In this document: positions 484-51,535 of the stretch, piece by piece
Numbering within the stretch: the stretch's first letter is position 1
Layout of the letters: each line of letters begins with the position of its first letter
Origin: a virus
Taxonomy: Duplodnaviria > Heunggongvirae > Uroviricota > Caudoviricetes
DNA length: 64,000 nucleotides
IMG/VR virus record: IMGVR_UViG_3300031999_007842
Span: 53,708 to 117,707 of that record
Strand: one strand, 5' to 3'
Notes under the pieces: model-generated
What the model was told of the DNA's origin: nothing
The model's database searches: none
What the model saw: the letters and a program-made list of their open reading frames with translations, nothing else
Made by a program: the position numbers and the translations under genes

Positions 484-708
484 ATGAAGCGTTTGACAAA
501 GGAAGAAGAGATTGAGTTCTGGGAGAGACTTCTGAAGCCTTTCTGTTTTGGTCGGTGGGATTGTCTCGTGGGTTCAAACAGAGAAAAGGGCGGAATCAAA
601 GCTTGGGGAGCTTGTAAGTATAGAAAGGAATGTATGGAATACGTTCACTCTCTTTCTGGAGAAGAACGTAGTAAGCCCCACCTTCCTTGGCAAGGAGTGA
701 AACCTTAG
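484..708 (+). CDS. W-x-[KR]-[IL]-L family small protein (FWERLLKP...), Cys-rich
   Basis: N-terminal FWERLL motif followed by Cys cluster; family repeated more than 25 times in window. Confidence 0.45.
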   Translation: MKRLTKEEEIEFWERLLKPFCFGRWDCLVGSNREKGGIKAWGACKYRKECMEYVHSLSGEERSKPHLPWQGVKP

Positions 709-1167
709 ATGAAGGAATTTGGTATCTTCAAGTGGAAAATCAAAGGCACAAATAGAGTTGACACTATTCCTGATGCCAAGCTGAAGAGGATGCAACCTAA
801 GGCAGACCATGAATATTTCTCAGCCTGTGTCAAGCTCAGGGAACTTCAGGGACATGTGAGGAATCTCAATGCGAATGTCATGCGATTCAAGCTCATCAGG
901 GAACGAATACGAAGTGAAGTTGGATTCAGGAAGGCGAGAGATTGCCCATGCCATGTACTCACAGGAAAAAGAAACGGTAACATTCTGTGTCTAGCCCACA
1001 AGCATAGTTGGGAGAACCTGTATTGTGGAAGGGAATACTACTTCTGGGTATGCTCCCATTGTCGCATGGGTATAGACTATAGAGCAACGAAAGCTATGAT
1101 GGCTAAGCTCACAGGTGAATATACAAAGCATGTAGTGAGGAAAGATGACCAAGGAATCATTCTGTAG
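709..1167 (+). CDS. hypothetical Cys/His-rich protein
   Basis: 152-aa ORF starting 1 nt after upstream stop. Confidence 0.4.
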   Translation: MKEFGIFKWKIKGTNRVDTIPDAKLKRMQPKADHEYFSACVKLRELQGHVRNLNANVMRFKLIRERIRSEVGFRKARDCPCHVLTGKRNGNILCLAHKHSWENLYCGREYYFWVCSHCRMGIDYRATKAMMAKLTGEYTKHVVRKDDQGIIL

Positions 1168-1567
1168 ACTCCCCAAACCAGAAGTACGTCTCCTCATAGA
1201 GATAATGGAGGGAGTGTGCTGTCTCTCCTGCACGCTTGCTGGAAAGGATGAATGCTGGTCTTGGACGCAAATGTCCAAGTTCATCAGGGGCTTCAGGAGA
1301 GATAGGAGACTCAATGTCTACCATGTTGGAAGTGCTTGTAAAAGCTGGAGAGGGACTGGAGGAAGGGAGATGGAAGGCAGATCCAAACCTGTGAGGCTCA
1401 AAGATGTCTGAAGCAGTTAGGAAGCTAGCCATGAAACTCAAGCCTTGTCAGTACTATAGACACAACTTGTGTTGCAAGCCTTTCTTCACAGGCAATATGA
1501 GATGGTATGGTTGCCCAGATACTAGGAAATGTTGTGTTCTTTGTGCCGCCGAGTTTTGTCCTATTAA

Positions 1568-1981
1568 GTGTGTGGAGGTAAGAGAATGACTCAGGGTAAA
1601 GTCAAACAGATGATGAACTTCCTGAACTTCCCTAATGATGTTGCTAAGGCTCTCAATAACATAGCCAAGGTCAACTCCTTCCAATACAAGAAGTTCTTCA
1701 TAGTACCCAAGGTCAAAGTAATATGGAGAATGGCTGGTGGGAATAGAAACTATGGTGGACTATACTTCACCATTAACAAGAGACTTGTGCGAGGTTGGGT
1801 ACAGTTCGACTCTGCCTTCTTCTTTGAGACACAGAAGGAGACTCAACGCTGGTTGAATAGCTGGCTAAGTCAAAGACTCACACCTGTCATTAACTCGATG
1901 GAAGTTGGAGCTTCTATTAACAAGACTAAGGCTCGGAAGCTAGTGGAGCAGATGTACAATGTCAAAGTCAAAGTTATCTAA
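1568..1981 (+). CDS. hypothetical protein
   Basis: 137-aa co-directional ORF; no domain recognised. Confidence 0.4.
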   Translation: MCGGKRMTQGKVKQMMNFLNFPNDVAKALNNIAKVNSFQYKKFFIVPKVKVIWRMAGGNRNYGGLYFTINKRLVRGWVQFDSAFFFETQKETQRWLNSWLSQRLTPVINSMEVGASINKTKARKLVEQMYNVKVKVI

Positions 1982-2278
1982 GAGAGATGAAGCACGCCTG
2001 AAGCTAATCCTCAGACTGGAAAAGAAACCATGTGAAGAGAAGTTCATATTCTGTTCGTGTTGCTTCAACTGTGTTTGGGTGTATGAATGCTATCGGGCTT
2101 GGAGAAGGGGTCTCCTGAAACTGTGCAGAAACCGAGGTGTCACGAAAAAAGCTCAACCAACATGGTGTTCAGCAGTGGCTAACTATATAGCAGACCTTCT
2201 AGGTCACAAGAAGATATGGAATCTATCCACTGATGTCCCAGTTCCCAATGGGAAGATTAAGAAATGGGAGGATGAAGA

Positions 2279-2596
2279 GTGAAGCTCAAAAGAATTCCAC
2301 CCAAGAAGAGAAGACTAGGGCCATCTGAGAAGGGTCGGAAGCTTGCTCTCTGGAGGACAGTTATCCATGGTAGAGTATACTATGAGAATGGGAAGAAATG
2401 TCAAGTCTGCTTAGAGAGTGAACGTTGGGGTCATCGCTGTTGCTGGGAATGTGACCGCTTCCATCTTTGCTACCCCTTGTGGGCACACGATTACACATCT
2501 GGCCAACAGACAAGATGCTGTCCTTATGCAGTAGAGAAGTTCAAACATTGTAGTAGAGCCTATGATAAGTACAAGGAAATGCTGAAGCGTGGTTGA
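2279..2596 (+). CDS. Cys/His-rich small protein
   Basis: 105 aa, CxxC and HxxC pairs; start overlaps upstream stop. Confidence 0.4.
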   Translation: MKLKRIPPKKRRLGPSEKGRKLALWRTVIHGRVYYENGKKCQVCLESERWGHRCCWECDRFHLCYPLWAHDYTSGQQTRCCPYAVEKFKHCSRAYDKYKEMLKRG

Positions 2597-2852
2597 AATG
2601 AAAGCAGAAAAGCTTCATGATTATACAGTTAAAGTCTTTGATGAGCTTCTTAATATCTTCAAAGAGCTTGGCTATAATGTATGCTTTGACTGTGGGAAAC
2701 CTATCAGGAATAAGAACTCAGGTGGAGTAATGATATTGGATGGACATGGTTCCTTGCTCCTCTGCAACAATTGCACTTGGGCTCGTGTAGAGAAGCTGGA
2801 GACATGGAGGAAGATACTTGGCACAAAGGTCCCAAGATACAAAGACTCCTAG
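2589..2852 (+). CDS. Cys-rich small protein
   Basis: 87 aa, CFDCG...CNNC zinc-ribbon-like. Confidence 0.4.
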   Translation: MVEMKAEKLHDYTVKVFDELLNIFKELGYNVCFDCGKPIRNKNSGGVMILDGHGSLLLCNNCTWARVEKLETWRKILGTKVPRYKDS

Positions 2853-3030
2853 AGAGATGTGGAACAAGATACTCAGACCAAGTTGCTTTGGCAAAGATAA
2901 AATTCTTGACTGTATTTTCAAATGCTTGAGGAAATCAGCTCACCCAATCTGTGAACACTATAATGCTTGTCTTGCTGCTAATCTTGAACGTATCAGAAAG
3001 GAGAAGCAAGGAGTATGGACAAAGAGATAG
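2818..3030 (+). CDS. W-x-K-I-L family small protein (MWNKILRPSCFG)
   Basis: N-terminal motif plus Cys cluster. Confidence 0.4.
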   Translation: MAQRSQDTKTPREMWNKILRPSCFGKDKILDCIFKCLRKSAHPICEHYNACLAANLERIRKEKQGVWTKR

Positions 3031-4007: not shown

Positions 4008-4226
4008 ATGTCGGAAGTGGTTACACCTAAGAGAGCTGAAGGATTCAACATATCTTGGAACTTAAACCTTTTCTCTGGACCGAAGTGGACGATAGTCTGT
4101 GGTAAATGTGAAGCTACTTTTAAGGCAAGGATTCCAACCATAGACTATCCAACGGTTGTATGCCCACACTGTGGTGCAGTGAACGAGTTAGACCTAGTCT
4201 TTACTTCAATGGGTGATGACTCTTGA
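4008..4226 (+). CDS. zinc-ribbon protein
   Basis: CGKC...CPHCG two CxxC pairs; strong AAGGAGGGG RBS 5 nt upstream. Confidence 0.5.
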   Translation: MSEVVTPKRAEGFNISWNLNLFSGPKWTIVCGKCEATFKARIPTIDYPTVVCPHCGAVNELDLVFTSMGDDS

Positions 4227-4450
4227 ACTACAAATCCTTCTGGGAGAGAGTCCTCCTGCAACATTCAGACTGTATGTGGGATGCTTATTCGGAAGATGGT
4301 AAAGTATCCCGTAGAGTCTCCTATCCTCCATCTCCGTGGCTTGGTGTTGGAGAACGGGATACAGTGAAAGCCAAGTTCCTGTGTAGAACTTGCAACAACA
4401 TAGTTTGTAACAGGGACAGGTCATGCGACCATTGGGCAACTTATAGGTAG
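4223..4450 (+). CDS. W-x-[KR]-[IV]-L family small protein (FWERVLLQHSDC)
   Basis: motif plus Cys cluster; ATGA overlap. Confidence 0.4.
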   Translation: MNYKSFWERVLLQHSDCMWDAYSEDGKVSRRVSYPPSPWLGVGERDTVKAKFLCRTCNNIVCNRDRSCDHWATYR

Positions 4451-7267: not shown

Positions 7268-7555
7268 ATGTCTCATTTGAGAAGATATACTTACCACCAG
7301 AGAGGTGGGAGAAAAGAACTTGTTGCATGGATACAAAATAGATGTGGGAAATGTGGTAGATTCCTTACTAAAAGACAAACCAAATACTGTAAACAATGTA
7401 AGTACCCTGCTCTTTTAGAGTATGAGAGAGAACTTTACAGGCAAGGAAGGAAAATGCCTAAGAGAAATAAATATGATTTTCACAAGCTTAGGACTCAAGA
7501 TGAGAACCTCTATAGAAGGGAAATATATAGAATCAAGCATGGGAGGAAGCAGTAA
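7268..7555 (+). CDS. paralog B1 (CGKCGRFLTKRQTKYCKQCKYP zinc ribbon, basic)
   Basis: aligns with 8440..8673. Confidence 0.45.
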   Translation: MSHLRRYTYHQRGGRKELVAWIQNRCGKCGRFLTKRQTKYCKQCKYPALLEYERELYRQGRKMPKRNKYDFHKLRTQDENLYRREIYRIKHGRKQ

Positions 7556-7956
7556 TGACAGCCAAGAGGATGTCGCAACTAAGTAGGGAAGAACTGAGGC
7601 AGATGATTGTTGAGAGAAGGGCTGAAATGAAGCGACGTGAGCTGGAGATAAAAACAGTTGCCGAGAACCTCAACCAACTCAAGAGGCAGCACTACCAATT
7701 CTGGGATGCACTCAAAGAAACCAAGGAGATACTTGGTTCTATGAATGGGAGAGACTGTCCCGCCATGAAGGAAGGGATGAGTAAATATGGCGGGAAGAAT
7801 ACTATCTGTGCAGCCAAGCGGTACAAGTATATTACATGGTCTAGAGAAGACCTGTATAGGTTGCATTGCTTTACTTGCAGACTTACTCCTGAGCAGGCCA
7901 AGACTGCAATGCTGTATGACCGTATACTCATAGGGAGGAGAAAAGATGGACAGTGA
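7555..7956 (+). CDS. paralog A2 (EDLYRLHCFTCR)
   Basis: aligns with 6856..7263. Confidence 0.45.
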   Translation: MTAKRMSQLSREELRQMIVERRAEMKRRELEIKTVAENLNQLKRQHYQFWDALKETKEILGSMNGRDCPAMKEGMSKYGGKNTICAAKRYKYITWSREDLYRLHCFTCRLTPEQAKTAMLYDRILIGRRKDGQ

Positions 7957-8439: not shown

Positions 8440-8673
8440 TTGCAAAGTAGATGGAGAAGGCACTCAGCAAGGAAAAAGAAACTACTATCTTGGATACAAA
8501 GAAGATGTGTACGTTGTGGCCGATTCCTTTCCAAGTTTCAGAAGAAGTATTGTAAACAATGTACTTACCCTCGGAAACTAGAACTCAACAGGATTTATTA
8601 TTGGAAAGATATTCAACTCAGCAGAAAAAGAGGGCGGGAGAAATATTGGAAGAAGAACTCCGACATGAGATAG
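8440..8673 (+). CDS. paralog B2 (CVRCGRFLSKFQKKYCKQCTYP)
   Basis: aligns with 7268..7555. Confidence 0.45.
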   Translation: MQSRWRRHSARKKKLLSWIQRRCVRCGRFLSKFQKKYCKQCTYPRKLELNRIYYWKDIQLSRKRGREKYWKKNSDMR

Positions 8674-8865
8674 AAGTATTGAGTAAGAGAGAGGCTTGGA
8701 GGTCTCGGTGGGGAATATACATCTCCAAGAGAAGAGCTGATTACTGTGGCCAATGTAGGAGAATCAAGTATTGCAGAAGGACTTATGCCAATGAGTATAT
8801 CAGGAGAGCACTATTCATGGGTGAGGACTGTCCTGACCTTAGTTCAATATGGGAGAGGATGCTAG

Positions 8866-9162
8866 ATGGGAAACTCTGAGGAACTGTGTGGACTTCTCCT
8901 GTTCAGGATAATCTGCAGGATGAAGGAAAGGTTTGTGTGGCTGAAGATCAATGAGGAGCAAGAATCTATGGAGTGTCTCTCAGTTGAATACTGGCTTGCC
9001 AAACAGGATGACAATGCTGATAGAATCAAGGAGATACTTCGTCTTGTCTGCTTACTCAACGATGAGGCTAGGAATCTGTTCTACACTTATGCAGACAACC
9101 TAGCTTGGGAATGTATGAAGGAGGAACTTGAAAGATATGAAGGAGAAACTCGACAGGGTTAA
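8866..9162 (+). CDS. hypothetical protein
   Basis: co-directional ORF. Confidence 0.4.
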   Translation: MGNSEELCGLLLFRIICRMKERFVWLKINEEQESMECLSVEYWLAKQDDNADRIKEILRLVCLLNDEARNLFYTYADNLAWECMKEELERYEGETRQG

Positions 9163-12574: not shown

Positions 12575-13058
12575 TTCTAAATGAGTATGAACGAAGGCGA
12601 GAAACGATTCTGTAAGGGTATGACAGGTGAGGCGTGTCATTCAAAGCTATGCTGTCTTTTCTGTGAACCCAAATGCATATATCCTTGCTACAGACTCAGA
12701 GTGACTGGAAGTGAGACTTGTCAGAGGAGATGTACTATATGGGAGAAATTGCTGGAAACTTAGAGATGAAATATTATTGCAGGAACAGACCTCCCATATC
12801 ATGTGACACCCATCTATGCTGTTTCTCTTGTGAGAAGGGAAATGAATGCGGTCATAGCTGTGTAAGTATAGGTGCAAGGATAAATTGTTCTGCAAGACGT
12901 ACTGTATGGGAAATCATTCTTGGTACTAGAGGAGACACTTAGATTTGGACAACCTACAGTGTAAGACACAATCACATTATAGGAAGAATACTGCCATGAA
13001 ACCCTCTGTAGACATTCTCTATTGGACACTAGAACAAGGAAGGAAGTGTCTATCCTAG

Positions 13059-13888: not shown

Positions 13889-14131
13889 ATGAGGGAAACT
13901 GAGGCTAGTCTCTGGCATAGACTACTTGGAGGATTTCCTAAAGGGACACTTGTCAAGGTAAAGGATAGGAGGTTTTCCAGAGGTTACTACTATGGTATTG
14001 TACAAGAGTTTGCTCAGATTACTTATAAGAAGACCAGATACTTCTACATCATAAACCAATATCCAGTTCGACATGGGTGTAGCATGTGGGTTAAACCTGA
14101 TAGCATACTTGAAGTTGTGGAGAAAAGTTAA
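13889..14131 (+). CDS. W-x-R-L-L-G family, beta-strand-like subtype (SLWHRLLGGFPKGTLVKVKD)
   Basis: N-terminal motif plus G-x-x-G-[DT]-x-V-K-F-like segment; ATGA overlap. Confidence 0.45.
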   Translation: MRETEASLWHRLLGGFPKGTLVKVKDRRFSRGYYYGIVQEFAQITYKKTRYFYIINQYPVRHGCSMWVKPDSILEVVEKS

Positions 14132-16542: not shown

Positions 16543-16821
16543 ATGGATAAGTATAACCGTGAATGTGGCAAATGCTCTTCAACTTTTACCTGCAATCATT
16601 CCTGTGAAGAAACTTTACAGATTAATTCCTGCTACTGTCCTAAGTGTTTCGAAGAAATCCTGCTCCCTATATTTATTAATGGCTCAGAGTACAATGGTCT
16701 ACTCAGAAAGCGTTTGAAATGTGATGTAATCTCGAAAGAACTGAGTGGCAAAGTTCTAATTCTCTACACTATGGAGAAGCTAAAAGGTAAAGGTAGGATG
16801 AAACATTTTGAACTCCTCTAA
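16543..16821 (+). CDS. Cys-rich small protein
   Basis: CGKC...CNHSC...CYCPKC. Confidence 0.4.
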   Translation: MDKYNRECGKCSSTFTCNHSCEETLQINSCYCPKCFEEILLPIFINGSEYNGLLRKRLKCDVISKELSGKVLILYTMEKLKGKGRMKHFELL

Positions 16822-17032
16822 CATTGAAGAGACATGGAATAAGATTCTTGGCTATCAGAATGGAAGCAAAGTGAAACTATTGAAAAACTTCTACAGCTTT
16901 GATGACAAATATATTTCTAAAGGTGAGGTCGGGGTTGTCAAGGTTAGTGTTGACAATAAATGGTTTAGAGTTGAGTTCCCCAATAAGAGATGTCTGATTC
17001 TAGAAGCAGAGGAAATAGAAGGGATAGAGTAG
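16808..17032 (+). CDS. W-x-K-I-L-G family (ETWNKILGYQNGSKVKLL)
   Basis: motif plus beta-strand-like subtype. Confidence 0.45.
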   Translation: MNSSNIEETWNKILGYQNGSKVKLLKNFYSFDDKYISKGEVGVVKVSVDNKWFRVEFPNKRCLILEAEEIEGIE

Positions 17033-18723: not shown

Positions 18724-19026
18724 TTGAATAAAGTTTCTACTGTTTGGAGAAAACTCTTTGGTTGGCAAGTTGGAGACTACTTGAAATACTACTTTCTTCC
18801 ATCAGGGAATGAAGAGGGGAAATGGCTAACTCTCAGGATTATAAGAATCTCATCCAGTGATTTCGTTGAAGTCAAAGTCTTGAGCAAGAACTTTGGGATT
18901 GACAAATTCAATCTAAGAATAGCTTATGTGGAGGAGAAGGTTCCTTGGCATTTAAAAGATTATGCACCTAGAGACAGGACAAAGAGAAGATTGAATTGGA
19001 GGAATAGAGTTGCCCTGCATCTGTAA
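18724..19026 (+). CDS. W-x-K-L-F-G family (VWRKLFGWQVGDYLKYYF)
   Basis: motif plus GDY segment. Confidence 0.4.
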   Translation: MNKVSTVWRKLFGWQVGDYLKYYFLPSGNEEGKWLTLRIIRISSSDFVEVKVLSKNFGIDKFNLRIAYVEEKVPWHLKDYAPRDRTKRRLNWRNRVALHL

Positions 19027-19849: not shown

Positions 19850-20128
19850 ATGAGAAGTATGAAAGACATTGACATGTGGATCAAAATTCTAGGATGGATG
19901 GGTCAGAGAGTCAAGCTCAAAGTAACATACTCACGCCCAAAGATCAGGAAAGGTGAAATTGGGACTGTGTTGAATGCTGATTATCTGGGAGGAAAGATTG
20001 TTTTTCTGAAGGTTAGGTTTTCTAGGAGAAGAACTATTTTCTGTTTTGCTGATGAAGTATCTCCACTAGCAAGAGGGAGGAATTTTGAAGTTGGAAAGAT
20101 GGCAAAGACTAAAGGAAATTCCAAGTAA
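19850..20128 (+). CDS. W-x-K-I-L-G family (MWIKILGWMGQRVKLKV)
   Basis: motif; starts right after upstream stop. Confidence 0.45.
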   Translation: MRSMKDIDMWIKILGWMGQRVKLKVTYSRPKIRKGEIGTVLNADYLGGKIVFLKVRFSRRRTIFCFADEVSPLARGRNFEVGKMAKTKGNSK

Positions 20129-20996: not shown

Positions 20997-21246
20997 AGCA
21001 AATTTCAAAAGATGGAGCAAGATTCTAGGCCGTGAAACCCTGCAAATAGGTGATCCTATTAAGTTCAAATGGACTGACCTAAGAAGCCCCAAGTCCTGTG
21101 AAAATAGAAAGACATGGACTTATGGATATGTCACAGACTTGCATGAAGGATTAGGGTATCATGTTAGAGTAGTCAAGGGTGGAACAATTAGAGATGGTGT
21201 TCTAGTAACTTTCAAGGATGTAAAATTATGGTTTCCAAGAAAGTAA
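20986..21246 (+). CDS. W-x-K-I-L-G family, tandem copy 1 (RWSKILGRETLQIGDPIKFKWTDLR)
   Basis: near-identical architecture to next two genes. Confidence 0.5.
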   Translation: MTTEANFKRWSKILGRETLQIGDPIKFKWTDLRSPKSCENRKTWTYGYVTDLHEGLGYHVRVVKGGTIRDGVLVTFKDVKLWFPRK

Positions 21247-21482
21247 CATGGAGAAAGATTCTTGGGATCAAGACATTCCAAGTAGGGGACTATGTGAAAT
21301 TCAAATGGGGCGATCTACGTTACAATTCTAAATGGAAAGAGAGAAAGACTTGGTGTTATGGTCAAGTCATTGTCATCCTCTCTGAGGGTGATGAATATAT
21401 AGTGAGACTCATGAGAGGGAGTCCCCAGAAAGAACTTCATGCTATGGAAGAGGTGAGACTTTGGTCTCCAAGGAAGAAGTAG
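21228..21482 (+). CDS. W-x-K-I-L-G family, tandem copy 2 (MVSKKVTWRKILGIKTFQVGDYVKFKWGDLR)
   Basis: tandem paralog. Confidence 0.5.
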   Translation: MVSKKVTWRKILGIKTFQVGDYVKFKWGDLRYNSKWKERKTWCYGQVIVILSEGDEYIVRLMRGSPQKELHAMEEVRLWSPRKK

Positions 21483-30307: not shown

Positions 30308-30593
30308 AAAGTGGATCTGGGGCAAGATACTTGGTTTCAAGGCAGGCGACAAAGTTAGACTCACACGAGATTATCCTATATCTGATAAAGAAAACTCAAA
30401 CCCTCTAAAAATTCCTTGGGGATTCTCATTGAAACTCGAGGTTATTAAGAAAGGTACTCTGGGAACCATAGTTCAGGTTCTAAGTTTGGGAGACTTTCAG
30501 TTATACATAGTTAACTTTAGAAAGCCATCTCTTCAAAATTATTGGGTGACAGACTTTGAAATCGAACCAGCAGACGAAAGAGATTTGGAATAA
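30297..30593 (+). CDS. W-x-K-I-L-G family (WIWGKILGFKAGDKVRL)
   Basis: motif. Confidence 0.45.
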   Translation: MRSEKWIWGKILGFKAGDKVRLTRDYPISDKENSNPLKIPWGFSLKLEVIKKGTLGTIVQVLSLGDFQLYIVNFRKPSLQNYWVTDFEIEPADERDLE

Positions 30594-30792
30594 AATCTTG
30601 GGATATCAAGTGGGTCAGAAAATTAGAATAACCTATCCTTGTTGGTTTCAAGGAAGGAAGTTGGAAGGAAGAAGAGGAGTCATTGTAAATATAGGCTACG
30701 ATACAAGCCATTCATTTGTTATTTATTACACTAAAGTAAACTGGATAAAAGGGGAGTTTCAATTGATAGAGAAAGAGTTTGAAGGAATATGA
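30556..30792 (+). CDS. W-x-K-I-L-G family (EIWNKILGYQVGQKIRI)
   Basis: motif. Confidence 0.45.
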   Translation: MKSNQQTKEIWNKILGYQVGQKIRITYPCWFQGRKLEGRRGVIVNIGYDTSHSFVIYYTKVNWIKGEFQLIEKEFEGI

Positions 30793-31247
30793 AAGACAAT
30801 CGAGTTTGGGCTAGAGTGTTTGGAAACAATTACACTTACAAGAAGTATGAAAGAATAAGGCTAATCAAGTCATTCAAGAGACCTTGGGAAAAGGGAACTA
30901 TTCATAATGGATCAGTCTTCAATGTTAAAGAAGACATCGGAGACAAAGTCACGGTTGTAATACGTTACCGAGATGAGGAGAATATTCCAAAGAGCATAGT
31001 TGAACCTTTCCCTTTCAGGCACTTTAGACAAAGGCAAAGAGTTCGCGTCAAAAAGACTATTCACTGTGAAGGAACTTGTACCCAAAATAAAAGCAGAAGT
31101 GCCTATTGTTCTATAAGGAGAGGTAGAATAGGCAAGATAGAAAAGATTGAAAACTTTGGTACTTTCCACAGACTCCTATATGTAGTATTCAAAGGAGAAG
31201 ATAGAGCTGTCTACGAAGATTGGGAGGTTGAAAAAGTTGGGCAATAA
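30789..31247 (+). CDS. W-x-R-V-F-G family, divergent (VWARVFGNNYTYKKYERIRL)
   Basis: ATGA overlap; degenerate motif. Confidence 0.4.
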   Translation: MKDNRVWARVFGNNYTYKKYERIRLIKSFKRPWEKGTIHNGSVFNVKEDIGDKVTVVIRYRDEENIPKSIVEPFPFRHFRQRQRVRVKKTIHCEGTCTQNKSRSAYCSIRRGRIGKIEKIENFGTFHRLLYVVFKGEDRAVYEDWEVEKVGQ

Positions 31248-31509
31248 ATTGACGATGTGGCAAGCAATTCTTGGCCCTTTCCCAGAAGGAACAATTGCCA
31301 GATTCAGAGATGGAAGATTCAGGAGAGGTTATGTGGAAGGAGAGATCATAGGCTATTTCTTGTATTATGTGTATGATAATATGAGGAAGATGAAACCTAA
31401 TACATTTTCATACAAAGTCAAACTAGGCAAGCAAGCCTGGAATCTGTGCTATAAGAGACCAAGCACAGTAATCAAAGTCCTTAATGGACAAAAGAGGAAA
31501 AAAGAATGA
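31228..31509 (+). CDS. W-x-A-I-L-G family (MWQAILGPFPEGTIARFRDGRF)
   Basis: closely resembles 13889..14131. Confidence 0.45.
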   Translation: MKKLGNKLTMWQAILGPFPEGTIARFRDGRFRRGYVEGEIIGYFLYYVYDNMRKMKPNTFSYKVKLGKQAWNLCYKRPSTVIKVLNGQKRKKE

Positions 31510-32879: not shown

Positions 32880-33369
32880 AGATGATTTGATTCAAACTAG
32901 AGAAGGCTTTTGGAAGTCTACCTACTGTTTCCACTTCTCGATGAAACAGTCTATACAAGATGTACAAGAATTTGGAAGGCTTCTCAAGAAATATCTCAAG
33001 GTTAAGGGTTTGCCTTTCGAGTGTAAAAGTTCCTATCTAATCTACACTGACCAACGGGCAGACAAGAATTGTAATCCATATTTCTTTAGGGGAGATCTTG
33101 TCATGGAAGTGAGGAGAAAATCTCTAATGTCTCGTCTCAATCCTAGGCATAGTAAGATAGATGGAGATGAGACAATAATTATTCAATGGGACAAAGGAGA
33201 TGATTTCTTCATCACGTTTCAAGAATACAAATATGAGGCTTGTGGCAAACAGATAATATGGAAGATTCCATTGGAACAAATCAAAGCATTCAAAGAAAAA
33301 CTGGAGAGATTCGCAGGTGCAGATGACATTTACAAACTCTTATTGGACTGTGCTACTCAAGATGAGTGA
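32869..33369 (+). CDS. hypothetical protein
   Basis: 166-aa ORF. Confidence 0.45.
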   Translation: MTLKDDLIQTREGFWKSTYCFHFSMKQSIQDVQEFGRLLKKYLKVKGLPFECKSSYLIYTDQRADKNCNPYFFRGDLVMEVRRKSLMSRLNPRHSKIDGDETIIIQWDKGDDFFITFQEYKYEACGKQIIWKIPLEQIKAFKEKLERFAGADDIYKLLLDCATQDE

Positions 33370-33568
33370 GAAGAAGATATGGGATAAAATACTTGGAGAC
33401 CCAAGGAGATGTAGATGGTTCTATCGGAGTCGCTGCACTACTTTAAACTATACCGGACCGATTAGGCATTTCGATGGTTTCCCATTATGTAAAATGAAGG
33501 TCTGTGAAGATTATGAGGAAAGAGATCAAGGAAAAGAGAATGTGGGAAAAGTTACTCCAAGTCAATAG
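33362..33568 (+). CDS. W-x-K-I-L-G family, Cys subtype (MSEKKIWDKILGDPRRCRWFYRSRC)
   Basis: start placed at internal ATG overlapping upstream stop. Confidence 0.4.
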   Translation: MSEKKIWDKILGDPRRCRWFYRSRCTTLNYTGPIRHFDGFPLCKMKVCEDYEERDQGKENVGKVTPSQ

Positions 33569-33719
33569 ATATTGTGCTTGGAGATGCCATAACGGTACTT
33601 GCCTAATTAAAACTGGTACAGATAAGAATGGCCTGTATAAAGTGGTTCGGTGCAAGTTGCCATGTTCTCATTTAGATTTAGGATTATGGATCAAAACCCA
33701 GGAAGATAAATTTGACTAG
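33504..33719 (+). CDS. W-x-K-L-L family, Cys subtype (RMWEKLLQVNRYCAWRCHNGTC)
   Basis: motif plus Cys cluster. Confidence 0.4.
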   Translation: MKIMRKEIKEKRMWEKLLQVNRYCAWRCHNGTCLIKTGTDKNGLYKVVRCKLPCSHLDLGLWIKTQEDKFD

Positions 33720-34103
33720 ATTGTGAAATCGTTGAAGAAAGTGTGGAATCGAATACTATTCAGAAAGCATGAATGCCAGCATTACGGAGAGAATGGAGAA
33801 TGCCTAATCAAATTCAGAAAGCTAGGACCAATATGCACAGAGTATGAATGTTGCAATAGGATTTGTGAGAAGTTTGAAGCAAGCCAAGAAGAAAGAATAT
33901 GAAGTATGGAAGCATGTTCTCGATACGTTTGATACTGGTGATCGTGTAGAGACACCTTATGGTCAAGGAACTGTCTATATGGATTTGGGTGAATTTCTGG
34001 AAGTAGCTGTCGCACTAATAACTCACAATCAAGATTTGGAACCATTCTTGGATGGTTCAATAATAATGGCTATACCTAGAAGCAAGATAAGGCGACTTGA
34101 ACA

Positions 34104-34388
34104 ATGACAGATAAACAAGAAGAGAATGGATGTAGGGCTCGCCTCATTATGGGTTACCATCTAGCCAAGACATGGTCTCAATGTGAATTTAGACTCAAAG
34201 GTACTTGTTGCAAAGATTGCAAGCGTCTAAAGAACTGTCAGAGTCCTTGTTCTTTCATGTATCCATACTATCAACATGAGACCAAGAGTTATGGCCTAGA
34301 AAAGTTCAAATGCATGTACTTCATGACTGAGATAGAGGCAGTAATCAGAAGATTGGATACCAACAAGGAGAGAGGAATTGTCGAATGA
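34104..34388 (+). CDS. Cys-rich small protein
   Basis: CEFRLKGTCCKDCKRLKNCQSPC. Confidence 0.4.
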   Translation: MTDKQEENGCRARLIMGYHLAKTWSQCEFRLKGTCCKDCKRLKNCQSPCSFMYPYYQHETKSYGLEKFKCMYFMTEIEAVIRRLDTNKERGIVE

Positions 34389-39649: not shown

Positions 39650-40074
39650 CAACCTGGTTAACATCATCTCTAGGATTCCAAGCGATGCATGATGAATTCC
39701 CAGAAGATGTTTCAGTAGTGGAAGTTCTTGATCTGAAAGATGGCTGGAATGATCCAGAACTTGTGTACAAGAAAGCTAAGAAGATTCTGGCTAGGATAGG
39801 CAGAGGAAAGAAGGTGGTACTCTTCTGTCATGCAGGGCTTAGTAGAAGCCCAGGGATGGCCATTCTCGCACTTGCTTGGTTATCTAGGGTTGAATATGAA
39901 GATATGCACTTTCAAGTAGTCAAAGAAGCTCCTCAGGTTCAGATGGCTCCGGGCTTCGAAGGATGTTGCAAGGAAGCTTTGAAACTTCTGAATAAGAGAC
40001 TAGTCAAAACATGTGGATGCGGTGCTCCAATTGAAGAAGAAGAAAGCAAATGCGAATACTGCTCATCCATTTGA
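39646..40074 (+). CDS. dual-specificity/protein-tyrosine phosphatase-like protein
   Basis: VVLFCHAGLSRSPG = CX5R P-loop (HCxxGxxRS) signature. Confidence 0.6.
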   Translation: MTTWLTSSLGFQAMHDEFPEDVSVVEVLDLKDGWNDPELVYKKAKKILARIGRGKKVVLFCHAGLSRSPGMAILALAWLSRVEYEDMHFQVVKEAPQVQMAPGFEGCCKEALKLLNKRLVKTCGCGAPIEEEESKCEYCSSI

Positions 40075-40267
40075 TTGTGCCAGATCTAACCTTGAATGGT
40101 TCTGGGATAAAATCCTTCATCGTCCGGAAGAGTGTGCTTTCAGTGGTGGTAAAGGAAGGTGCATCTTGCTTCAAGAAATGAGCAGATACACCAATTACTC
40201 TCCAGAATGTAAAGGAGTGTGCAAGTTGTTTGCAGTTAAAGAAGAAAGAAAGAATCGCTCTCTTTAA
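40013..40267 (+). CDS. W-x-K-I-L family, Cys subtype; tandem paralog 1 of 3
   Basis: WFWDKILHRPEECAF...CKGVCKLF aligns with the next two ORFs. Confidence 0.35.
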   Translation: MDAVLQLKKKKANANTAHPFDCARSNLEWFWDKILHRPEECAFSGGKGRCILLQEMSRYTNYSPECKGVCKLFAVKEERKNRSL

Positions 40268-41806: not shown

Positions 41807-41807
41807 C

Positions 41808-42739: not shown

Positions 42740-43021
42740 GTGAAGATTGTGGTAACTATGGAATCCTCAAACAAAAGGATGGGTCGTGGCTCTGCGAGGA
42801 CTGTAGATCGTACAGATGACGAATGCAAGCATGAATGGAAAGAAATAGGGACTTTGGTCTTCTATGAGGCAGGAGCTCCAACGATGCCTTCCAGTGAATG
42901 TTATTCAGGGCATTTGAAAACGGACAAGCTAATAGCAGTTCTCAAATGTGAGAAATGTAGAGAAGTCAAGTTCCAGTTCAGTCCTTGGAATATAATATTG
43001 GGAGGAAAGAAAGATGTGTAA
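42740..43021 (+). CDS. hypothetical protein
   Basis: co-directional ORF. Confidence 0.4.
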   Translation: MKIVVTMESSNKRMGRGSARTVDRTDDECKHEWKEIGTLVFYEAGAPTMPSSECYSGHLKTDKLIAVLKCEKCREVKFQFSPWNIILGGKKDV

Positions 43022-43265
43022 GTGGGGCACTTACAAGAAAGTATTAGTTACTATCCCCAAGGAACTAAGTTACACAAGGAAGGAACGAAGAGCTTATGTC
43101 GAGATTGATTTATGCATTGCCGATTTGGTGAAAGCTCTCAACAGGAATGGAATAAAGACTATTGCTTCCTGTTGTGGGCATGGAAAGGGCCAGGGAAGAA
43201 TTGATCTAGCTGATGGAAGAATACTTTTTATTCAGTCAAGGGAAGGCGAGGATGGATATGAATAA
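43014..43265 (+). CDS. hypothetical protein
   Basis: co-directional ORF. Confidence 0.4.
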   Translation: MCKWGTYKKVLVTIPKELSYTRKERRAYVEIDLCIADLVKALNRNGIKTIASCCGHGKGQGRIDLADGRILFIQSREGEDGYE

Positions 43266-43557
43266 ACAACAAGAATGGAGAAAGATCCTAGGGCAACATT
43301 TCTGTGAAGCTTGCAATTCAAGTATTCATAATCTGGTAAAGATCGGACTTAGTATTCCAATTCCTTTAGAGTATCTAAAAACACCAGAAGGTACAGAGTA
43401 TTTCCTTTGCCCAAACTGTATGCTAAGATTGATAACCTGTAGTCTTAGCAAGAATCAAGTAAAAAATCTACTTGAGAATGGCCACACCAGGAAGGAATTT
43501 TACTTGCATCATGATTTCTATGATGACATAGGCATTAGTTTGCAACCTTTGATTTGA
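43252..43557 (+). CDS. W-x-K-I-L-G family, Cys subtype (QEWRKILGQHFCEACNSS)
   Basis: start trimmed to internal ATG. Confidence 0.4.
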   Translation: MDMNKQQEWRKILGQHFCEACNSSIHNLVKIGLSIPIPLEYLKTPEGTEYFLCPNCMLRLITCSLSKNQVKNLLENGHTRKEFYLHHDFYDDIGISLQPLI

Positions 43558-46471: not shown

Positions 46472-46478
46472 CTCATAT

Positions 46479-46552: not shown

Positions 46553-46557
46553 TTCAA

Positions 46558-46977: not shown

Positions 46978-46983
46978 CTCATA

Positions 46984-47058
46984 GGGGTAGTGGTGTAGTT
47001 TGGTCAACATCCCTGGCTTGGAACCAGGTGAACGTCAGTTCGAGTCTGGCCTACCCCA
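46984..47058 (+). tRNA. tRNA-Pro(TGG), intronless, no CCA
   Basis: GGGGTAG/CTACCCC, CCTGG-CTTGGAA-CCAGG, GTCAG-TTCGAGT-CTGGC. Confidence 0.65.
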
Positions 47059-47073
47059 CTCATAGTCACGGTT

Positions 47074-49492: not shown

Positions 49493-49529
49493 AATGAAGA
49501 ATGAATAAACTCTCAAAAGAAGCAGATAT

Positions 49530-50069
49530 TTGGAAACAAAGAAGGAAGAAAAAGGAAAGATCATAATGGTTGATAGAAAAGAAATTGTCCAAAAATATAT
49601 TGATGAATGCCGATCACTTTCTGCTCTTGGAAGAGAATATCATATTTCCCGTTTCAAAGTGAGAGATATTCTCGAGGAAGCTAATATTCCAATAAGGATT
49701 CGGGGATATAGACCAAGAACTTTGAGAATTCCTACTGATGCGCGGAAATTAGCTTACATCGCTGGGATTGTCGATGGAGAAGGAACAATAAGTTATACAC
49801 ATATAAAGAATGGATTCAGAGAGAAGGCTCCCTTCATTGCCATAAAGAATACAGATAAGAATCTAATTGATTGGTTAGTCAAAACTCTAGGAGGAAATGT
49901 GAGCGAAGGAAAGGTCAGGAAAGGTTGGAAGACTCCTTATAGATGGTACAAGTACTCGACGTTGGATGTCTATGATCTTGTGAGTGTCCTGAGACCTTAC
50001 CTAATAATTAAGAAAGAAAATGCAGATCTGGTTCTTAAGATCTGCAAAGAAAGGATGGGAAAGATTTGA
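49530..50069 (+). CDS. LAGLIDADG-family homing endonuclease-like protein with N-terminal HTH
   Basis: LAYIAGIVDGEGTIS = LAG(L/I)(I/V)DG(D/E)G motif. Confidence 0.55.
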   Translation: METKKEEKGKIIMVDRKEIVQKYIDECRSLSALGREYHISRFKVRDILEEANIPIRIRGYRPRTLRIPTDARKLAYIAGIVDGEGTISYTHIKNGFREKAPFIAIKNTDKNLIDWLVKTLGGNVSEGKVRKGWKTPYRWYKYSTLDVYDLVSVLRPYLIIKKENADLVLKICKERMGKI

Positions 50070-51163
50070 ACGCTCTCTCCAAGCATTTAGAAACTTGGTG
50101 GCTATTAAGAATTTCAGATTTCAAAGCAGGAAAAGCTCTTTCACCTATTACCTTGAGAGGTCTTTTCTATCTTATGCGATTGAAGGTAGGACAGAAGAAA
50201 ATGCCTAAGAAAGGAGGATTCTATGCAATCATAAAAAGAATAGAAGCAGAAAAGAAAGTAAATCGAGAAAAGCTTGGACTTGTCTCAGAACCAAAAGTCA
50301 ATATCATTTCTCGATGGGGTGAAGAGCCTCTTCTCAAGGCTGATTTGAACAAACTGAAAGGAGCCTTGGCATTTCTTTACATTGAGAAAAGTACTATAGT
50401 AGAAGCGATAGAACAAGATAAAAGCCTCACAGATAGAGGAATTGTCATAATTAAAGGAATGGGATTTGCTCCTAGGGAAATAAACAGAGTCTTGAAGAAG
50501 GCTCAAGAATTGGGAATTCCTATTTTCACACTCACAGACTTTGATGCATCAGGGATCTTAATAGATTTGAAGATCCAGCAATCTGGAGTCTCTACGACTA
50601 GATTGGGTATAGATCCAGATCTAGTAAAAACACTTGGTCTTAAAGTCTCAGATGTTCGAGAAGCTCTTCCCAGAGGCAAGGGTAAACTTGGCCATTTCAA
50701 ATACCTTCAAACCAATTATCCAAAACTAGCTAAAGGATTTCTAGATATTGGAGTAGGAGGACAGCCATATCGCATAGAGATAGATGGTGTCTTTGCATTG
50801 GCTGGAAAGGACAGGTTCATTGAGGAGATACTCAAACGTGCAGACTTAGCAGTTCCAGTCAAACCTGTCAAGAAGGCTTTGAACTATAAGAAAATACCCA
50901 AGAAGGTGGAAGGGATGAGAAGCACGGTTCATGATCTTGTAGACAATATGTTTACCAAGACTGCCATAGGTGCAGAGCAAGGACTCATAAAGAACAATGA
51001 GTCATTTAACAAGATACGCCTGAGTGAAATAGAGAAGAATATTGAAGACAAGATAGAGAAAAAGGGTGAAGAAGTTCCTACCACTCAAGTCTTGGAAGAG
51101 ACAATCAAAGCATTGCAAAAACTTCTGGCAGAACAAAAAGCCAAGGAGAAGAAGAAACCATGA
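50066..51163 (+). CDS. Spo11/topoisomerase VI subunit A-like protein, stand-alone (mini-A-like)
   Basis: ITLRGLFYLMRL (R-x-hFY catalytic-Tyr motif of the winged helix); Toprim-like IEKSTIVEAIE ... GIVIIKGMGFAPRE ... PIFTLTDFDASGILI (E...DxD...G). Confidence 0.5.
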   Translation: MNALSKHLETWWLLRISDFKAGKALSPITLRGLFYLMRLKVGQKKMPKKGGFYAIIKRIEAEKKVNREKLGLVSEPKVNIISRWGEEPLLKADLNKLKGALAFLYIEKSTIVEAIEQDKSLTDRGIVIIKGMGFAPREINRVLKKAQELGIPIFTLTDFDASGILIDLKIQQSGVSTTRLGIDPDLVKTLGLKVSDVREALPRGKGKLGHFKYLQTNYPKLAKGFLDIGVGGQPYRIEIDGVFALAGKDRFIEEILKRADLAVPVKPVKKALNYKKIPKKVEGMRSTVHDLVDNMFTKTAIGAEQGLIKNNESFNKIRLSEIEKNIEDKIEKKGEEVPTTQVLEETIKALQKLLAEQKAKEKKKP

Positions 51164-51295
51164 AACCGATAAAGATAGATTGCCCTATATGTACCAAGAC
51201 TATACACATCGATCCTGAGATAGATTTAGTTATCTGTCAGAACTGTGGGCAGATGTTTAAGGTCAAGATTGAAATAACATTGGAGCAAACCAAAT

Positions 51296-51535
51296 ATGAG
51301 AAGATACTCTGAGAAAGAAGTGTGGTCAAAGATACTGGGATTTCAAGTAGGAGATTATGTCAGGTTTAGATTCCATGGATCTTTACAGCACTGGTTTTAT
51401 TATGGCAAGATAGTATCAAAAGTCTCAGATAAGCATGTCAAGTTTCTTATTAACTTGGAACATCCTTATTGGTGTGGAGTGCCAGTCTTCAATAATGATG
51501 AGATTCATCTAGCACAGAAGAGGTCCAGGAAATGA
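51296..51535 (+). CDS. W-x-K-I-L-G family (EVWSKILGFQVGDYVRFRFHG)
   Basis: motif. Confidence 0.45.
   Translation: MRRYSEKEVWSKILGFQVGDYVRFRFHGSLQHWFYYGKIVSKVSDKHVKFLINLEHPYWCGVPVFNNDEIHLAQKRSRK

What the first reader, a model, noticed from the sequence alone, without database searches (positions are those of the whole stretch)
484..51535. Massive lineage-specific expansion (at least 28 copies) of small proteins with an N-terminal W-x-[KR]-[IL]-L-G motif
Motif occurrences include FWERLLKP (484), MWNKILRP (2818), IWKIILEG (3458), SLWHRLLGG (13889), ETWNKILGY (16808), VWRKLFGW (18724), EVWNKILGI (19010) and ELWVKILGI (19538). Others are MWIKILGW (19850), RWSKILGR / TWRKILGI / VWRRILDT / AWRKILGQ (20986-21927), KVWQKILGL / WIWGKILGF / EIWNKILGY / VWARVFGN / MWQAILGP (29993-31509) and KIWDKILGD / RMWEKLLQ (33362-33719). 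Further copies are WFWDKILHR (40013), EWRKILGQ (43252), EVWSKILGF (51296), and more. All lie within the first 15 residues of 65-110-aa proteins. The tails fall into two classes. One is G-x-x-x-G-[DQ]-x-[VI]-[KR]-[FVL] followed by several short beta-strand-like segments (SH3/KOW/ASCH-like barrel?), e.g. GFQVGDYVRFRF. The other is Cys-rich zinc-ribbon-like (RCRWFYRSRC, QKCTLTYCG). A shared N-terminal handle on two different small folds, multiplied dozens of times, suggests a common targeting, packaging or interaction signal or a modular effector repertoire. I do not recognise this as a named family.
Basis: seen in the sequence. Interest (0 to 1): 0.85.

Follow-up and report, generated by a model that had tools for sequence, protein, structure and literature searches.

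The report
Shared terminal tag on viral proteins
About one gene in five in this stretch of an uncultured 172-kb virus encodes a small protein with the same short helix (hydrophobic-W-x-K/R-I-L-G) at one end, joined to otherwise unrelated domains; it looks like a common docking or address tag, but its target is unknown.

Summary
W-x-[KR]-[IL]-L-G occurs 15 times in + strand frames and never on the - strand. The relaxed form occurs 28 times in about 165 genes, against 1.9 expected. I count 29 small proteins (59-152 aa) with the motif 7-31 residues from the start.

Selection acts on the protein: third codon positions are free. The motif is 77% identical between orthologues, against 51% for the rest of each protein. 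Profile comparison of the barrel class and the Cys-rich class aligns only the first 15 columns.

The barrel class is a generic SH3/Tudor-like small barrel, not ASCH. The Cys-rich class is heterogeneous and its fold is unresolved. Further domain types also occur. No Pfam or PHROGs family matches. Relatives exist only in a few related metagenomic contigs.

Best reading (inferred, not shown): a portable amphipathic terminal helix that docks many different small domains onto one shared receptor. The closest functional analogues are the T4 capsid-targeting sequence, encapsulin targeting peptides and MinD/MreB membrane-targeting helices. It meets no membership test for any of them. The receptor is unknown.

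The parts
484..708 (+). N-tag protein, Cys-rich tail (W at nt 520: EFWERLLKP)
2818..3030 (+). N-tag protein, Cys-rich tail (W at 2860: EMWNKILRP)
   Evidence: orthologous arrangement in L009
3458..3724 (+). Divergent N-tag protein, Cys-rich tail (W at 3509: NIWKIILEG)
4223..4450 (+). N-tag protein, Cys-rich tail (W at 4241: SFWERVLL)
   Evidence: orthologue in L006
5180..5494 (+). N-tag protein, barrel-like tail (W at 5210: HVWDKIMP)
   Evidence: orthologue in L006 keeps VWDKMLP
13889..14131 (+). N-tag protein, barrel tail (W at 13913: SLWHRLLGG)
   Evidence: P0014
14392..14694 (+). N-tag protein with a different, non-barrel and non-Cys tail (W at 14413: EMWEEILF)
   Evidence: orthologue in L006 has an identical tag
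16808..17032 (+). N-tag protein, barrel tail (W at 16835: ETWNKILGY)
18724..19026 (+). N-tag protein, barrel tail (W at 18745: TVWRKLFGW)
   Evidence: orthologue in L003
19010..19300 (+). N-tag protein, Cys-rich tail, 20-residue N-extension (W at 19070: EVWNKILGI)
   Evidence: orthologues in L003 and L009
19538..19849 (+). N-tag protein, barrel tail (W at 19574: ELWVKILGI)
19850..20128 (+). N-tag protein, barrel tail (W at 19877: DMWIKILGW)
   Evidence: orthologue in L009
20986..21246 (+). N-tag protein, barrel tail, 'FKW' subfamily (W at 21013: RWSKILGR)
21228..21482 (+). N-tag protein, barrel tail, 'FKW' subfamily (W at 21249: TWRKILGI)
21461..21736 (+). N-tag protein, barrel tail, 'FKW' subfamily (W at 21485: VWRRILDT)
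21715..21927 (+). N-tag protein, Cys-rich tail (W at 21739: AWRKILGQ); this is the sequence modelled for the Cys class
   Evidence: orthologues in L003 and L009
25862..26083 (+). Divergent N-tag protein, Cys-rich tail (W at 25904: AIWSIILGR)
   Evidence: orthologue in L003; domain similar to that of 21715
29993..30307 (+). N-tag protein, barrel tail (W at 30038: KVWQKILGL)
30297..30593 (+). N-tag protein, barrel tail (W at 30318: WIWGKILGF)
30556..30792 (+). N-tag protein, barrel tail (W at 30586: EIWNKILGY)
30789..31247 (+). N-tag protein with two barrel-like units, 152 aa (W at 30807: RVWARVFGN)
   Evidence: P0021-P0024; weak NifZ hit
31228..31509 (+). Divergent N-tag protein, barrel tail (W at 31258: TMWQAILGP); lies immediately upstream of the SPFH gene
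   Evidence: domain similar to that of 13889
33362..33568 (+). N-tag protein, Cys-rich tail (W at 33380: KIWDKILGD)
33513..33719 (+). N-tag protein, Cys-rich tail (W at 33543: RMWEKLLQ)
33723..33902 (+). N-tag protein, Cys-rich tail (W at 33744: KVWNRILF)
33844..34107 (+). Divergent N-tag protein, barrel tail (W at 33907: EVWKHVLDT)
40013..40267 (+). N-tag protein, Cys-rich tail, long N-extension (W at 40103: WFWDKILHR)
43252..43557 (+). N-tag protein, Cys-containing tail (W at 43276: QEWRKILGQ)
   Evidence: P0019
51296..51535 (+). N-tag protein, barrel tail (W at 51323: EVWSKILGF); this is the sequence modelled for the barrel class
2598..2852 (+). C-tag protein: Zn-ribbon-like body ending ETWRKILGTKVPRYKDS* (W at 2805)
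   Evidence: L009 orthologue ends EMWRKILGKPRQYK*
7555..7956 (+). C-tag protein (133 aa) ending MLYDRILIGRRKDGQ*; Y replaces W (Y at 7915)
   Evidence: the tail is conserved in L009 and L006
7946..8437 (+). C-tag protein (163 aa) ending ETWARILHGRRAERKG* (W at 8393)
   Evidence: L006 and L009 orthologues end IWTRILNGTKV and IWSRILQGKR
8559..8879 (+). C-tag protein (106 aa) ending SIWERMLDGKL* (W at 8850)
   Evidence: L003 orthologue ends NVWERVLNGNTNSV*
12581..12763 (+). Cys-rich 60-aa protein ending TIWEKLLET* (W at 12740). Looser variant of the tag, lacking a conserved K and G
   Evidence: the tail is conserved in L003, L006 and L009
12718..12942 (+). Tandem paralogue of 12581-12763, ending TVWEIILGTRGDT* (W at 12907)
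42740..43021 (+). Cys-containing 93-aa protein ending SPWNIILGGKKDV* (W at 42986). Possible C-tag; no orthologue was available to check it

Best explanation
The motif is a portable terminal docking helix of two turns. Its pattern is hydrophobic, W (rarely Y), x, K/R, I/L/V/M, L/F, then usually G as the helix stop. It presents a small hydrophobic face made of the preceding hydrophobic residue, W, I and L.

The helix is fused to the N-terminus of at least 29 different small domains in this window, and to the C-terminus of about 7 more. These include SH3/Tudor-like barrels, several kinds of Cys-rich modules and others.

Proposed mechanism: the helix inserts into one shared receptor site, a groove on a single viral or host protein. 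This brings a diversified, mostly basic repertoire of small binding domains to the same place. The variable domain then supplies each protein's specific activity.

Shown:
- The tag exists and is under protein-level selection.
- It is better conserved than the attached domains.
- It is the only part shared between the domain classes.
- It works at either terminus.
- AF2 predicts it as a helix in both classes modelled.

Inferred: that it binds anything at all, that there is one common receptor, and what that receptor is.
For: 1. Enrichment and position. There are 28 relaxed hits against 1.9 expected, and 24 lie in the first 35 residues against 0.6 expected. Strand asymmetry is 15:0.
2. Protein-level selection. 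Codon positions 1 and 2 of W, I, L and G are fixed. Third positions carry 0.25, 0.12 and 0.01 bits and follow genome codon usage.
3. Modularity. hhalign of 41 barrel-class against 11 Cys-class sequences aligns only 15 N-terminal columns ending at KILG (probability 83%, E = 1e-5). With the tag removed, only 8 member pairs are detectably similar.
4. Stronger constraint than on the domains. Tag positions are 77% identical in 24 best-hit alignments (mostly orthologue pairs), against 51% elsewhere. W is kept in 53 of 60 small database relatives.
5. Independence of terminus. The same motif ends the proteins 2598-2852, 7555-7956, 7946-8437 and 8559-8879. It is conserved there in orthologues that are 36-65% identical overall.
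6. AF2 predicts a helix over the tag in both classes: residues 6-14 of 51296-51535 and 4-12 of 21715-21927.
7. The tag sits on further fold types just upstream in the same contig, including a SWIM-like C-x-C module and a helical domain.
8. Tagged genes behave as an accessory repertoire. They are absent from the syntenic core of the more distant relatives L004 and L005.
Against: - No receptor was identified and no binding was tested. Structure prediction of complexes was not available.
- In the barrel class the helix is separated from strand 1 by only 3-6 residues. It could simply cap the barrel. The tool returns no coordinates or PAE, so I could not see whether it packs on the domain.
- The Cys-class model is unreliable (pLDDT 52).
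- Some C-terminal copies are loose variants lacking K or G (12581, 12718, 42740).
- A two-turn helix is at the lower limit for an autonomous docking motif.
Confidence: 0.45

Rival explanations
1. Capsid-loading tag. This is a special case of docking. The helix would bind the scaffold or the inner capsid surface, so that the small proteins are packaged and delivered with the genome. The T4 capsid-targeting sequence on internal proteins and encapsulin targeting peptides work this way.
For: [quoted passage not shown]
- Encapsulin cargo is loaded through short terminal targeting peptides (PMC7925596).
- Here a short terminal tag sits on diverse, mostly basic small proteins (median pI 9.45).
- The tagged genes form an accessory, variable repertoire.
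Against: - No conserved protease site follows the tag. T4 has L/I-x-E (my own knowledge).
- C-terminal copies are unlike T4.
- 36 or more cargo species is far more than T4's handful.
- The genes lie among dense small ORFs, away from any recognisable structural module.
- Non-tagged small proteins are equally basic (median pI 9.1).
- The structural genes of the contig could not be fetched.
Confidence: 0.2
2. Membrane-targeting amphipathic helix. The tag would be a weak lipid-binding helix of the MinD / MreB / SepF type that recruits the small domains to the cell membrane.
For: - The pattern h-W-x-[KR]-h-h-G resembles the E. coli MinD C-terminal helix (..FLKRLFGG, recalled from memory).
- Such helices work at either terminus and are transplantable (PMC8155659).
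- Mean hydrophobic moment is 0.54 and the mean discriminant D is 0.84, above the 0.68 cut-off.
- Whole N-tags carry a mean net charge of +2, and 18 of 29 are at least +2.
- Trp favours membrane interfaces.
- An SPFH/Band-7 gene sits inside the cluster.
Against: - The hydrophobic face has only about four residues.
- 9 of 23 tags fall below the lipid-binding cut-off, and 7 of 29 have net charge of zero or less.
- A single MinD helix is already too weak to bind without dimerisation (PMC8155659).
- Acidic residues often precede W.
- The whole proteome is basic, so positive charge does not discriminate.
Confidence: 0.13
3. Intrinsic structural element. The helix would be an N-terminal cap or a self-association (oligomerisation) helix, inherited from a common ancestor and retained while the rest of the protein diverged beyond recognition. 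There would be no shared external receptor.
For: - The helix abuts strand 1 in the barrel class.
- The best PDB sequence match, NdhS (2n5u), aligns from the W position with FEKIEG.
- Hybrid members have Cys inside barrels (30556; L010 8571).
- Tandem duplication is evident.
Against: - The same motif sits on Cys-rich, SWIM-like, helical and 106-163-aa bodies, and at C-termini.
- It is more conserved than any core.
- A cap should co-vary with its domain rather than stay constant across unrelated ones.
Confidence: 0.15
4. Degradation tag. The terminal motif would be recognised by an unfoldase-protease, for example one working with the ClpP encoded downstream in the same contig. That would time the removal of early proteins.
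For: - Degrons act at either terminus.
- The contig encodes a ClpP-family protein (PF00574).
- The window encodes an AAA+ MoxR-like protein.
- From memory, the lambda O N-terminal ClpX signal contains ..AKIL...
Against: - N-terminal ClpX signals need to be close to the free end, whereas W here lies 7-31 residues in.
- Known degrons do not centre on an invariant Trp.
- No unfoldase partner was identified.
- This idea rests purely on analogy.
Confidence: 0.04
5. Nucleic-acid signal. The conservation would reflect a DNA or RNA element, such as a regulatory protein binding site or a recombination site, rather than the peptide.
For: 11 of 17 bases of TGG NNN AAR ATH CTN GG recur, always on one strand.
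Against: - Exactly the synonymous positions are free.
- Substitutions are conservative at the protein level (I/L/V, L/F, K/R).
- Leu uses both CTN and TTR codons.
- The motif is always in frame.
Confidence: 0.02

Closest known systems
T4 capsid targeting sequence (CTS) on T-even internal proteins (IPI-III, Alt)
   Same: A short conserved N-terminal peptide is the only feature shared by a diverse, fast-evolving set of small phage proteins (PMC3012670). In both cases the repertoire is accessory and the genome is large (about 170 kb).
   Different: There is no sequence similarity. The CTS is strictly N-terminal and is removed at a protease site; here no cleavage site is conserved and 7 copies are C-terminal. 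There are 36 or more carriers here, against a handful in T4. Presence in virions is unknown.
Encapsulin cargo targeting peptides
   Same: Short terminal peptides with hydrophobic residues and Gly. They are sufficient to address unrelated cargo to one receptor, an HK97-fold shell (PMC7925596).
   Different: The consensus differs. No encapsulin or shell gene was seen in the window. Shell binding was not tested.
MinD / MreB / SepF membrane-targeting amphipathic helices
   Same: Two- to three-turn terminal amphipathic helix with a basic residue in the middle and Gly at the end. These helices work at either terminus and are transplantable (PMC8155659).
   Different: The tags here are not consistently cationic. 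They are attached to dozens of unrelated small domains rather than to one ATPase or actin family.
Phi-x-x-Phi-Phi docking helices of eukaryotic activation domains (e.g. CREB KID ..YRKILNDL.., from my own knowledge)
   Same: The same aromatic-x-basic-I-L arrangement forms a short amphipathic helix that inserts into a groove of a partner.
   Different: This is an analogy of physical principle only. The organisms are unrelated and no homology is claimed.
SH3-like / Tudor-like small beta-barrels (NdhS, PsaE, eL21, bL19, Mind bomb SH3 repeat, Agenet/Tudor)
   Different: No member reaches any Pfam gathering score. The W-tag is absent from those families, apart from a faint FEKIEG in NdhS.

Membership tests
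Any curated family (Pfam-A, PHROGs) | Significant match to a curated profile | tested here: not met
   10 members against Pfam and PHROGs, 41 barrel-class sequences against Pfam, and 10 further tagged proteins against Pfam. Nothing reached a gathering score. The best hits were isolated weak matches to SH3-like families (DUF1918, DUF4926, NifZ, NdhS, Tudor_5).
SH3-like / Tudor-like small beta-barrel fold (barrel class only) | A 4-5 stranded small barrel of about 60 residues, with sequence or fold similarity to known members | tested here: met
Zinc ribbon (Cys-rich class) | Two CxxC-type knuckles on a beta-hairpin scaffold | tested here: inconclusive
   Three Cys columns are invariant or nearly so, but spacings vary (C-x3-9-C ... 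C-x0-5-C). The AF2 model has pLDDT 51.6 and is unusable. There are no Pfam hits.
T4-type capsid targeting sequence | Strictly N-terminal position | tested here: not met
   Seven carriers have the motif 7-15 residues from the stop. It is conserved there in orthologues.
T4-type capsid targeting sequence | Conserved prohead-protease cleavage site directly after the tag | tested here: not met
   Positions after G are variable and no conserved Glu or other site is present. The protease specificity of this virus is unknown.
T4-type capsid targeting sequence / encapsulin targeting peptide | Tagged proteins are found inside the particle, and the tag binds the scaffold or shell | not testable with these tools
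   This needs virion proteomics or structure prediction of complexes. The structural genes of the contig lie outside the reachable region.
MinD-type membrane targeting sequence | Terminal amphipathic helix | tested here: met
   A helix is predicted over the tag in both models. Hydrophobic residues fall at i, i+1, i+4 and i+5, and the mean hydrophobic moment is 0.54.
MinD-type membrane targeting sequence | Consistently cationic, predicted lipid-binding character | tested here: inconclusive
   Net charge of 11-residue windows ranges from -2 to +4, and 9 of 23 fall below D = 0.68. Whole tags average +2, but 7 of 29 are zero or negative.
Double-glycine (class II bacteriocin / RiPP) leader | GG, GA or GS at positions -2/-1, followed by a short core peptide | tested here: not met
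   Only 13889 (LLGG) among N-tags has GG. The residue after G is usually F, Y, W, I, L, Q, D or R. The 'cores' are 50-140-aa folded domains.

The most novel reading that the evidence does not exclude
The W-x-K-I-L-G helix is an address tag of a kind not yet described. With it, a large and possibly archaeal virus would load more than 35 unrelated small effector domains onto a single receptor. The most attractive receptor is the procapsid, so that a whole arsenal would be co-delivered with the genome. That would be a CTS- or encapsulin-like cargo system with by far the largest natural cargo repertoire, and it would work from either protein terminus.
Probability: 0.2. Interest if true: 0.8.

Novelty: new variant of a known kind. 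Interest (0 to 1): 0.6.

Why it matters
If the tag is a true address signal, it gives three things.
- It is a sequence rule that at once marks about one fifth of the hypothetical genes of an uncharacterised virus clade as one functional set.
- It could serve as a minimal, transplantable 8-10-residue tag, usable at either terminus, for directing proteins to whatever the receptor is.
- It is a natural example of how viruses diversify effector repertoires by keeping an address constant while swapping the payload.

It also provides a single, simple experimental handle for a virus with no cultured host: a pull-down with the tag.

If the helix is only a structural cap, the finding reduces to an unusually large orphan family of small proteins.

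Tried and rejected
1. DNA- or RNA-level signal. Rejected: synonymous positions are free.
3. Sm/Hfq-like fold (helix plus barrel). Considered from memory, but no LSm or Hfq hit appeared in any search, so dropped.
4. Double-glycine leader, Tat signal, PIP box or clamp-binding motif. The patterns do not fit (inspection).
5. Widespread occurrence.
   - Three word-indexed searches of 5.8 billion proteins gave only 14, 5 and 11 hits, all from the same clade.
   - Two degenerate DNA pattern scans of IMG/VR gave no hits and then 56 chance hits with no true member.
   - GTDB genome scans gave nothing.
6. Read-through or frameshift joining the C-terminal tags to downstream ORFs. Rejected for 7946-8437: the L006 orthologue ends just after the tag and is followed directly by the 475-aa gene.
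7. Basic pI as a mark of packaged proteins. Not discriminating: members have median pI 9.45 and non-members 9.1.
8. The conserved 486-aa neighbour (9443-10903) as a receptor candidate. It has no Pfam, PHROGs or PDB match, so nothing could be concluded.
9. Host or environment. Sample accessions were not found in the literature library.
10. Sigma-70 promoters and terminators are not enriched.
11. The afdb50 fold library was unavailable.

Full report
CONTEXT. The window is densely packed with small genes, all on the + strand. GC content is about 40% and GC skew is positive throughout. It is part of an ENA metagenome contig of 171,794 bp (ERZ27247977 k141_5059899). By offset, the window covers roughly positions 25.8-89.8 kb.

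Recognisable genes include an RNA ligase, an aRF1/eRF1-like GGQ protein, a Topo VI-A/Spo11-type Toprim protein, a PD-(D/E)XK nuclease, ParB-like, MoxR-like AAA+ and SPFH proteins, and a tRNA array. Nothing similar is present among deposited phage genomes. It is therefore a large uncultured virus. Some features hint at an archaeal host (see 'noticed in passing').

- W.[KR][IL]LG occurs 15 times in + strand frames and never in - strand frames. The relaxed form W.[KR][ILV][LF] occurs 29 times on + and twice on -.
- In a crude set of 165 + strand genes, the relaxed motif occurs 28 times against 1.9 expected from 1000 shuffles (maximum 7). Twenty-four of these lie within the first 35 residues, against 0.6 expected.
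- A position-specific scoring matrix scan and a reduced-alphabet scan added divergent copies at 5180, 14392, 25862, 31228 and 33844.

PROTEIN OR NUCLEIC ACID? Protein.
- Within the motif, codon positions 1 and 2 are fixed.
- The third positions of Ile, Leu and Gly carry 0.25, 0.12 and 0.01 bits and mirror genome-wide codon usage.
- Substitutions are conservative: I/L/V, L/F, K/R.

WHAT IS ATTACHED TO IT? There are three groups.
- Sixteen carriers have a tail starting G-x-x-G-[DQ]-x-[VI]-[KR]. AF2 models one (51296-51535) as a helix at residues 6-14 followed by four strands (pLDDT 68).
  - A profile of 41 sequences hits NdhS (2n5u, E = 4e-4), PsaE and eL21.
  - An exhaustive HMM search retrieves multi-repeat proteins whose repeats are Pfam SH3_15 or Agenet/Tudor.
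  - This class is therefore an SH3/Tudor-like small barrel, not ASCH.
- Twelve carriers have Cys-rich tails with variable spacing. The AF2 model is unreliable (pLDDT 52) but again predicts a helix over the tag. 'Zinc ribbon' remains a guess.
- One carrier (14392) is neither type. Immediately upstream in the same contig, six more carriers include a SWIM-like C-x-C module and a helical domain.

No member matches Pfam or PHROGs.

THE TAG IS A MODULE.
- Profile-profile comparison of the barrel and Cys classes aligns exactly 15 columns and stops after KILG (hhalign probability 83%, E = 1e-5).
- After deleting the tag, only 8 of the 378 possible pairs of the 28 members compared show any BLAST similarity: the 20986/21228/21461 trio and five other pairs.
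- In 24 best-hit alignments (mostly orthologue pairs) with related contigs, the seven tag positions are 77% identical against 51% for the rest.
- 53 of 60 small database relatives keep the W-motif. The others have F or L in place of W, or are truncated gene calls.

NEW: THE TAG ALSO OCCURS AT C-TERMINI. Seven proteins end with it.
- 2598-2852: ..ETWRKILGTKVPRYKDS*
- 7555-7956: ..MLYDRILIGRRKDGQ*
- 7946-8437: ..ETWARILHGRRAERKG*
- 8559-8879: ..SIWERMLDGKL*
- Three looser variants: 12581-12763, 12718-12942 and 42740-43021.

For the first four, the tail is conserved in orthologues that are only 36-65% identical overall. Examples are L009 EMWRKILGKPRQYK*, L006 IWTRILNGTKV*, L009 MLYDRILNGRREDE* and L003 NVWERVLNGNTNSV*. 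The pre-specified relaxed pattern gives 3 hits in the last 18 residues against 0.26 expected.

A motif that is conserved at whichever end it sits, on bodies of 60-163 aa with unrelated sequences, behaves like a terminal short linear motif rather than part of one domain's core.

DISTRIBUTION.
- The family is confined to a small clade of uncultured viruses.
  - Word-indexed searches of 5.8 billion proteins returned 14, 5 and 11 unnamed hits.
  - The exhaustive HMM search of 1.84 billion representatives returned about 45 small relatives.
  - A JGI metagenome scan found 9 loci, all from two sample series.
  - IMG/VR pattern scans and GTDB genomes gave no true member.
- A syntenic relative (L003, a 122-kb contig) and more distant ones (L006, L009, L073, L075) carry orthologous tagged genes.
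- Two IMG/VR relatives (L004, L005) keep the core genes of window 25-64 kb within about 20 kb and lack tagged genes there.
- The repertoire is thus old, clade-wide and accessory. It is not a recent burst in this genome.

HOW MIGHT IT WORK? The tag is a two-turn amphipathic helix. Hydrophobic residues fall at i, i+1, i+4 and i+5, a conserved K/R lies between them, and a Gly acts as the helix stop. Constant sequence on changing payloads, at either terminus and under stronger constraint than the payloads, is the signature of a docking or address peptide. That is my preferred explanation (confidence 0.45), with the receptor unknown. Specific versions and alternatives follow.
- Capsid loading, as for the T4 CTS. 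T-even internal proteins are diverse defence proteins sharing only the CTS (PMC3012670). Encapsulin targeting peptides work similarly (PMC7925596). This is attractive, but there is no conserved cleavage site, the C-terminal copies are unlike T4, and virion content cannot be tested (0.2).
- A membrane-targeting helix resembling MinD or MreB (PMC8155659). The pattern fits, but charge and predicted lipid-binding scores are inconsistent (0.13).
- An intrinsic cap or self-association helix. This is plausible for the barrels, but hard to reconcile with the other folds and the C-terminal copies (0.15).
- A degron. The contig encodes a ClpP-family protein, but the idea rests on analogy only (0.04).
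- A nucleic-acid signal. Essentially excluded (0.02).

COMPARISON WITH KNOWN SYSTEMS. The family works like a targeting or docking peptide system. It fails or cannot be given every membership test for the T4 CTS, encapsulin targeting peptides, MinD-type targeting helices and double-glycine leaders (see the table). The barrel payloads belong to the SH3/Tudor fold class at low confidence. As a sequence family the tagged proteins are undescribed.

VERDICT. The 'massive expansion' and 'two classes' parts need correcting.

I rate it a new variant of a known kind: virus-encoded families sharing a terminal address peptide. Interest is 0.6. This is a clean, testable and unusually large case, but no mechanism has been demonstrated.

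Noticed in passing
window 45849-47059: tRNA array. Default ARAGORN finds 6 tRNAs (Thr, Lys x2, His, Cys, Pro). Rfam adds a 141-nt tRNA hit at 45849-45989. ARAGORN with intron search calls tRNA-Ser(gct) with a 57-nt intron and tRNA-Leu(taa) with a 64-nt intron at the canonical anticodon-loop position, plus a doubtful tRNA-Arg with a 347-nt intron. Short canonical introns suggest an archaeal (or eukaryal) splicing host.
   Followed up: partly
window 47796-48764 (with 43769-45016): aRF1/eRF1-like protein (Pfam eRF1 domain 2, E = 1e-28) with an intact GGQ motif (HKGGQSQRR). It lies next to the tRNA array and an RNA ligase, and is conserved at 61% identity in the IMG/VR relative L004. This may be a tRNA or ribosome rescue/repair module.
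   Followed up: partly
L012 12281-13852 and 18472-19083 (same contig, downstream of the window): A eukaryote-type topoisomerase IB with all three Pfam domains, and a ClpP-family protease. GNAT, RNase H and nucleoside deoxyribosyltransferase genes are also present. This is an unusual set for a prokaryotic virus.
   Followed up: no
window 50066-51163, 58876-60441, 62224-63225, 31506-32519: A Topo VI-A/Spo11-type Toprim protein, a MoxR-like AAA+ protein with a VWA-like partner, and an SPFH/Band-7 protein. The SPFH gene starts at the stop codon of tagged gene 31228-31509.
   Followed up: no
L009 10276-10330: The orthologue of tagged gene 21715-21927 has an in-frame TAA directly after the tag (WRKILH*LQPCKCKC), where the window has CAG. 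It could be a pseudogene, an assembly variant or a recoding event.
   Followed up: partly
window 21225-21250, 21458-21485, 21712-21740: In the tandem 'FKW' genes, the C-terminal ..LW[SC]PRKK* of one gene and the N-terminal MVSK[KE]E.. of the next are encoded by the same bases in different frames. This explains why neighbouring genes of different class share N-termini beyond the tag.
   Followed up: partly
window 9443-10903: A 486-aa protein with no Pfam, PHROGs or PDB match. It is conserved in every relative that carries tagged genes (L003, L006, L009), sits beside the cluster of C-terminally tagged genes, and was not found in IMG/VR. It is a possible receptor candidate, but that is pure speculation.
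   Followed up: partly
L004 and L005 (IMG/VR contigs of 121.5 and 128 kb): More distant relatives keep core genes corresponding to window 25-64 kb within about 20 kb. They lack the small tagged genes there, so much of the extra 40-50 kb of this genome may be accessory small-gene islands.
   Followed up: partly
window 12001-32000: Sigma-70-like promoters (33 found against 43 expected) and intrinsic terminators (9 against 14 expected) are not enriched. Every gene in the 64 kb is on one strand, with positive GC skew throughout.
   Followed up: no
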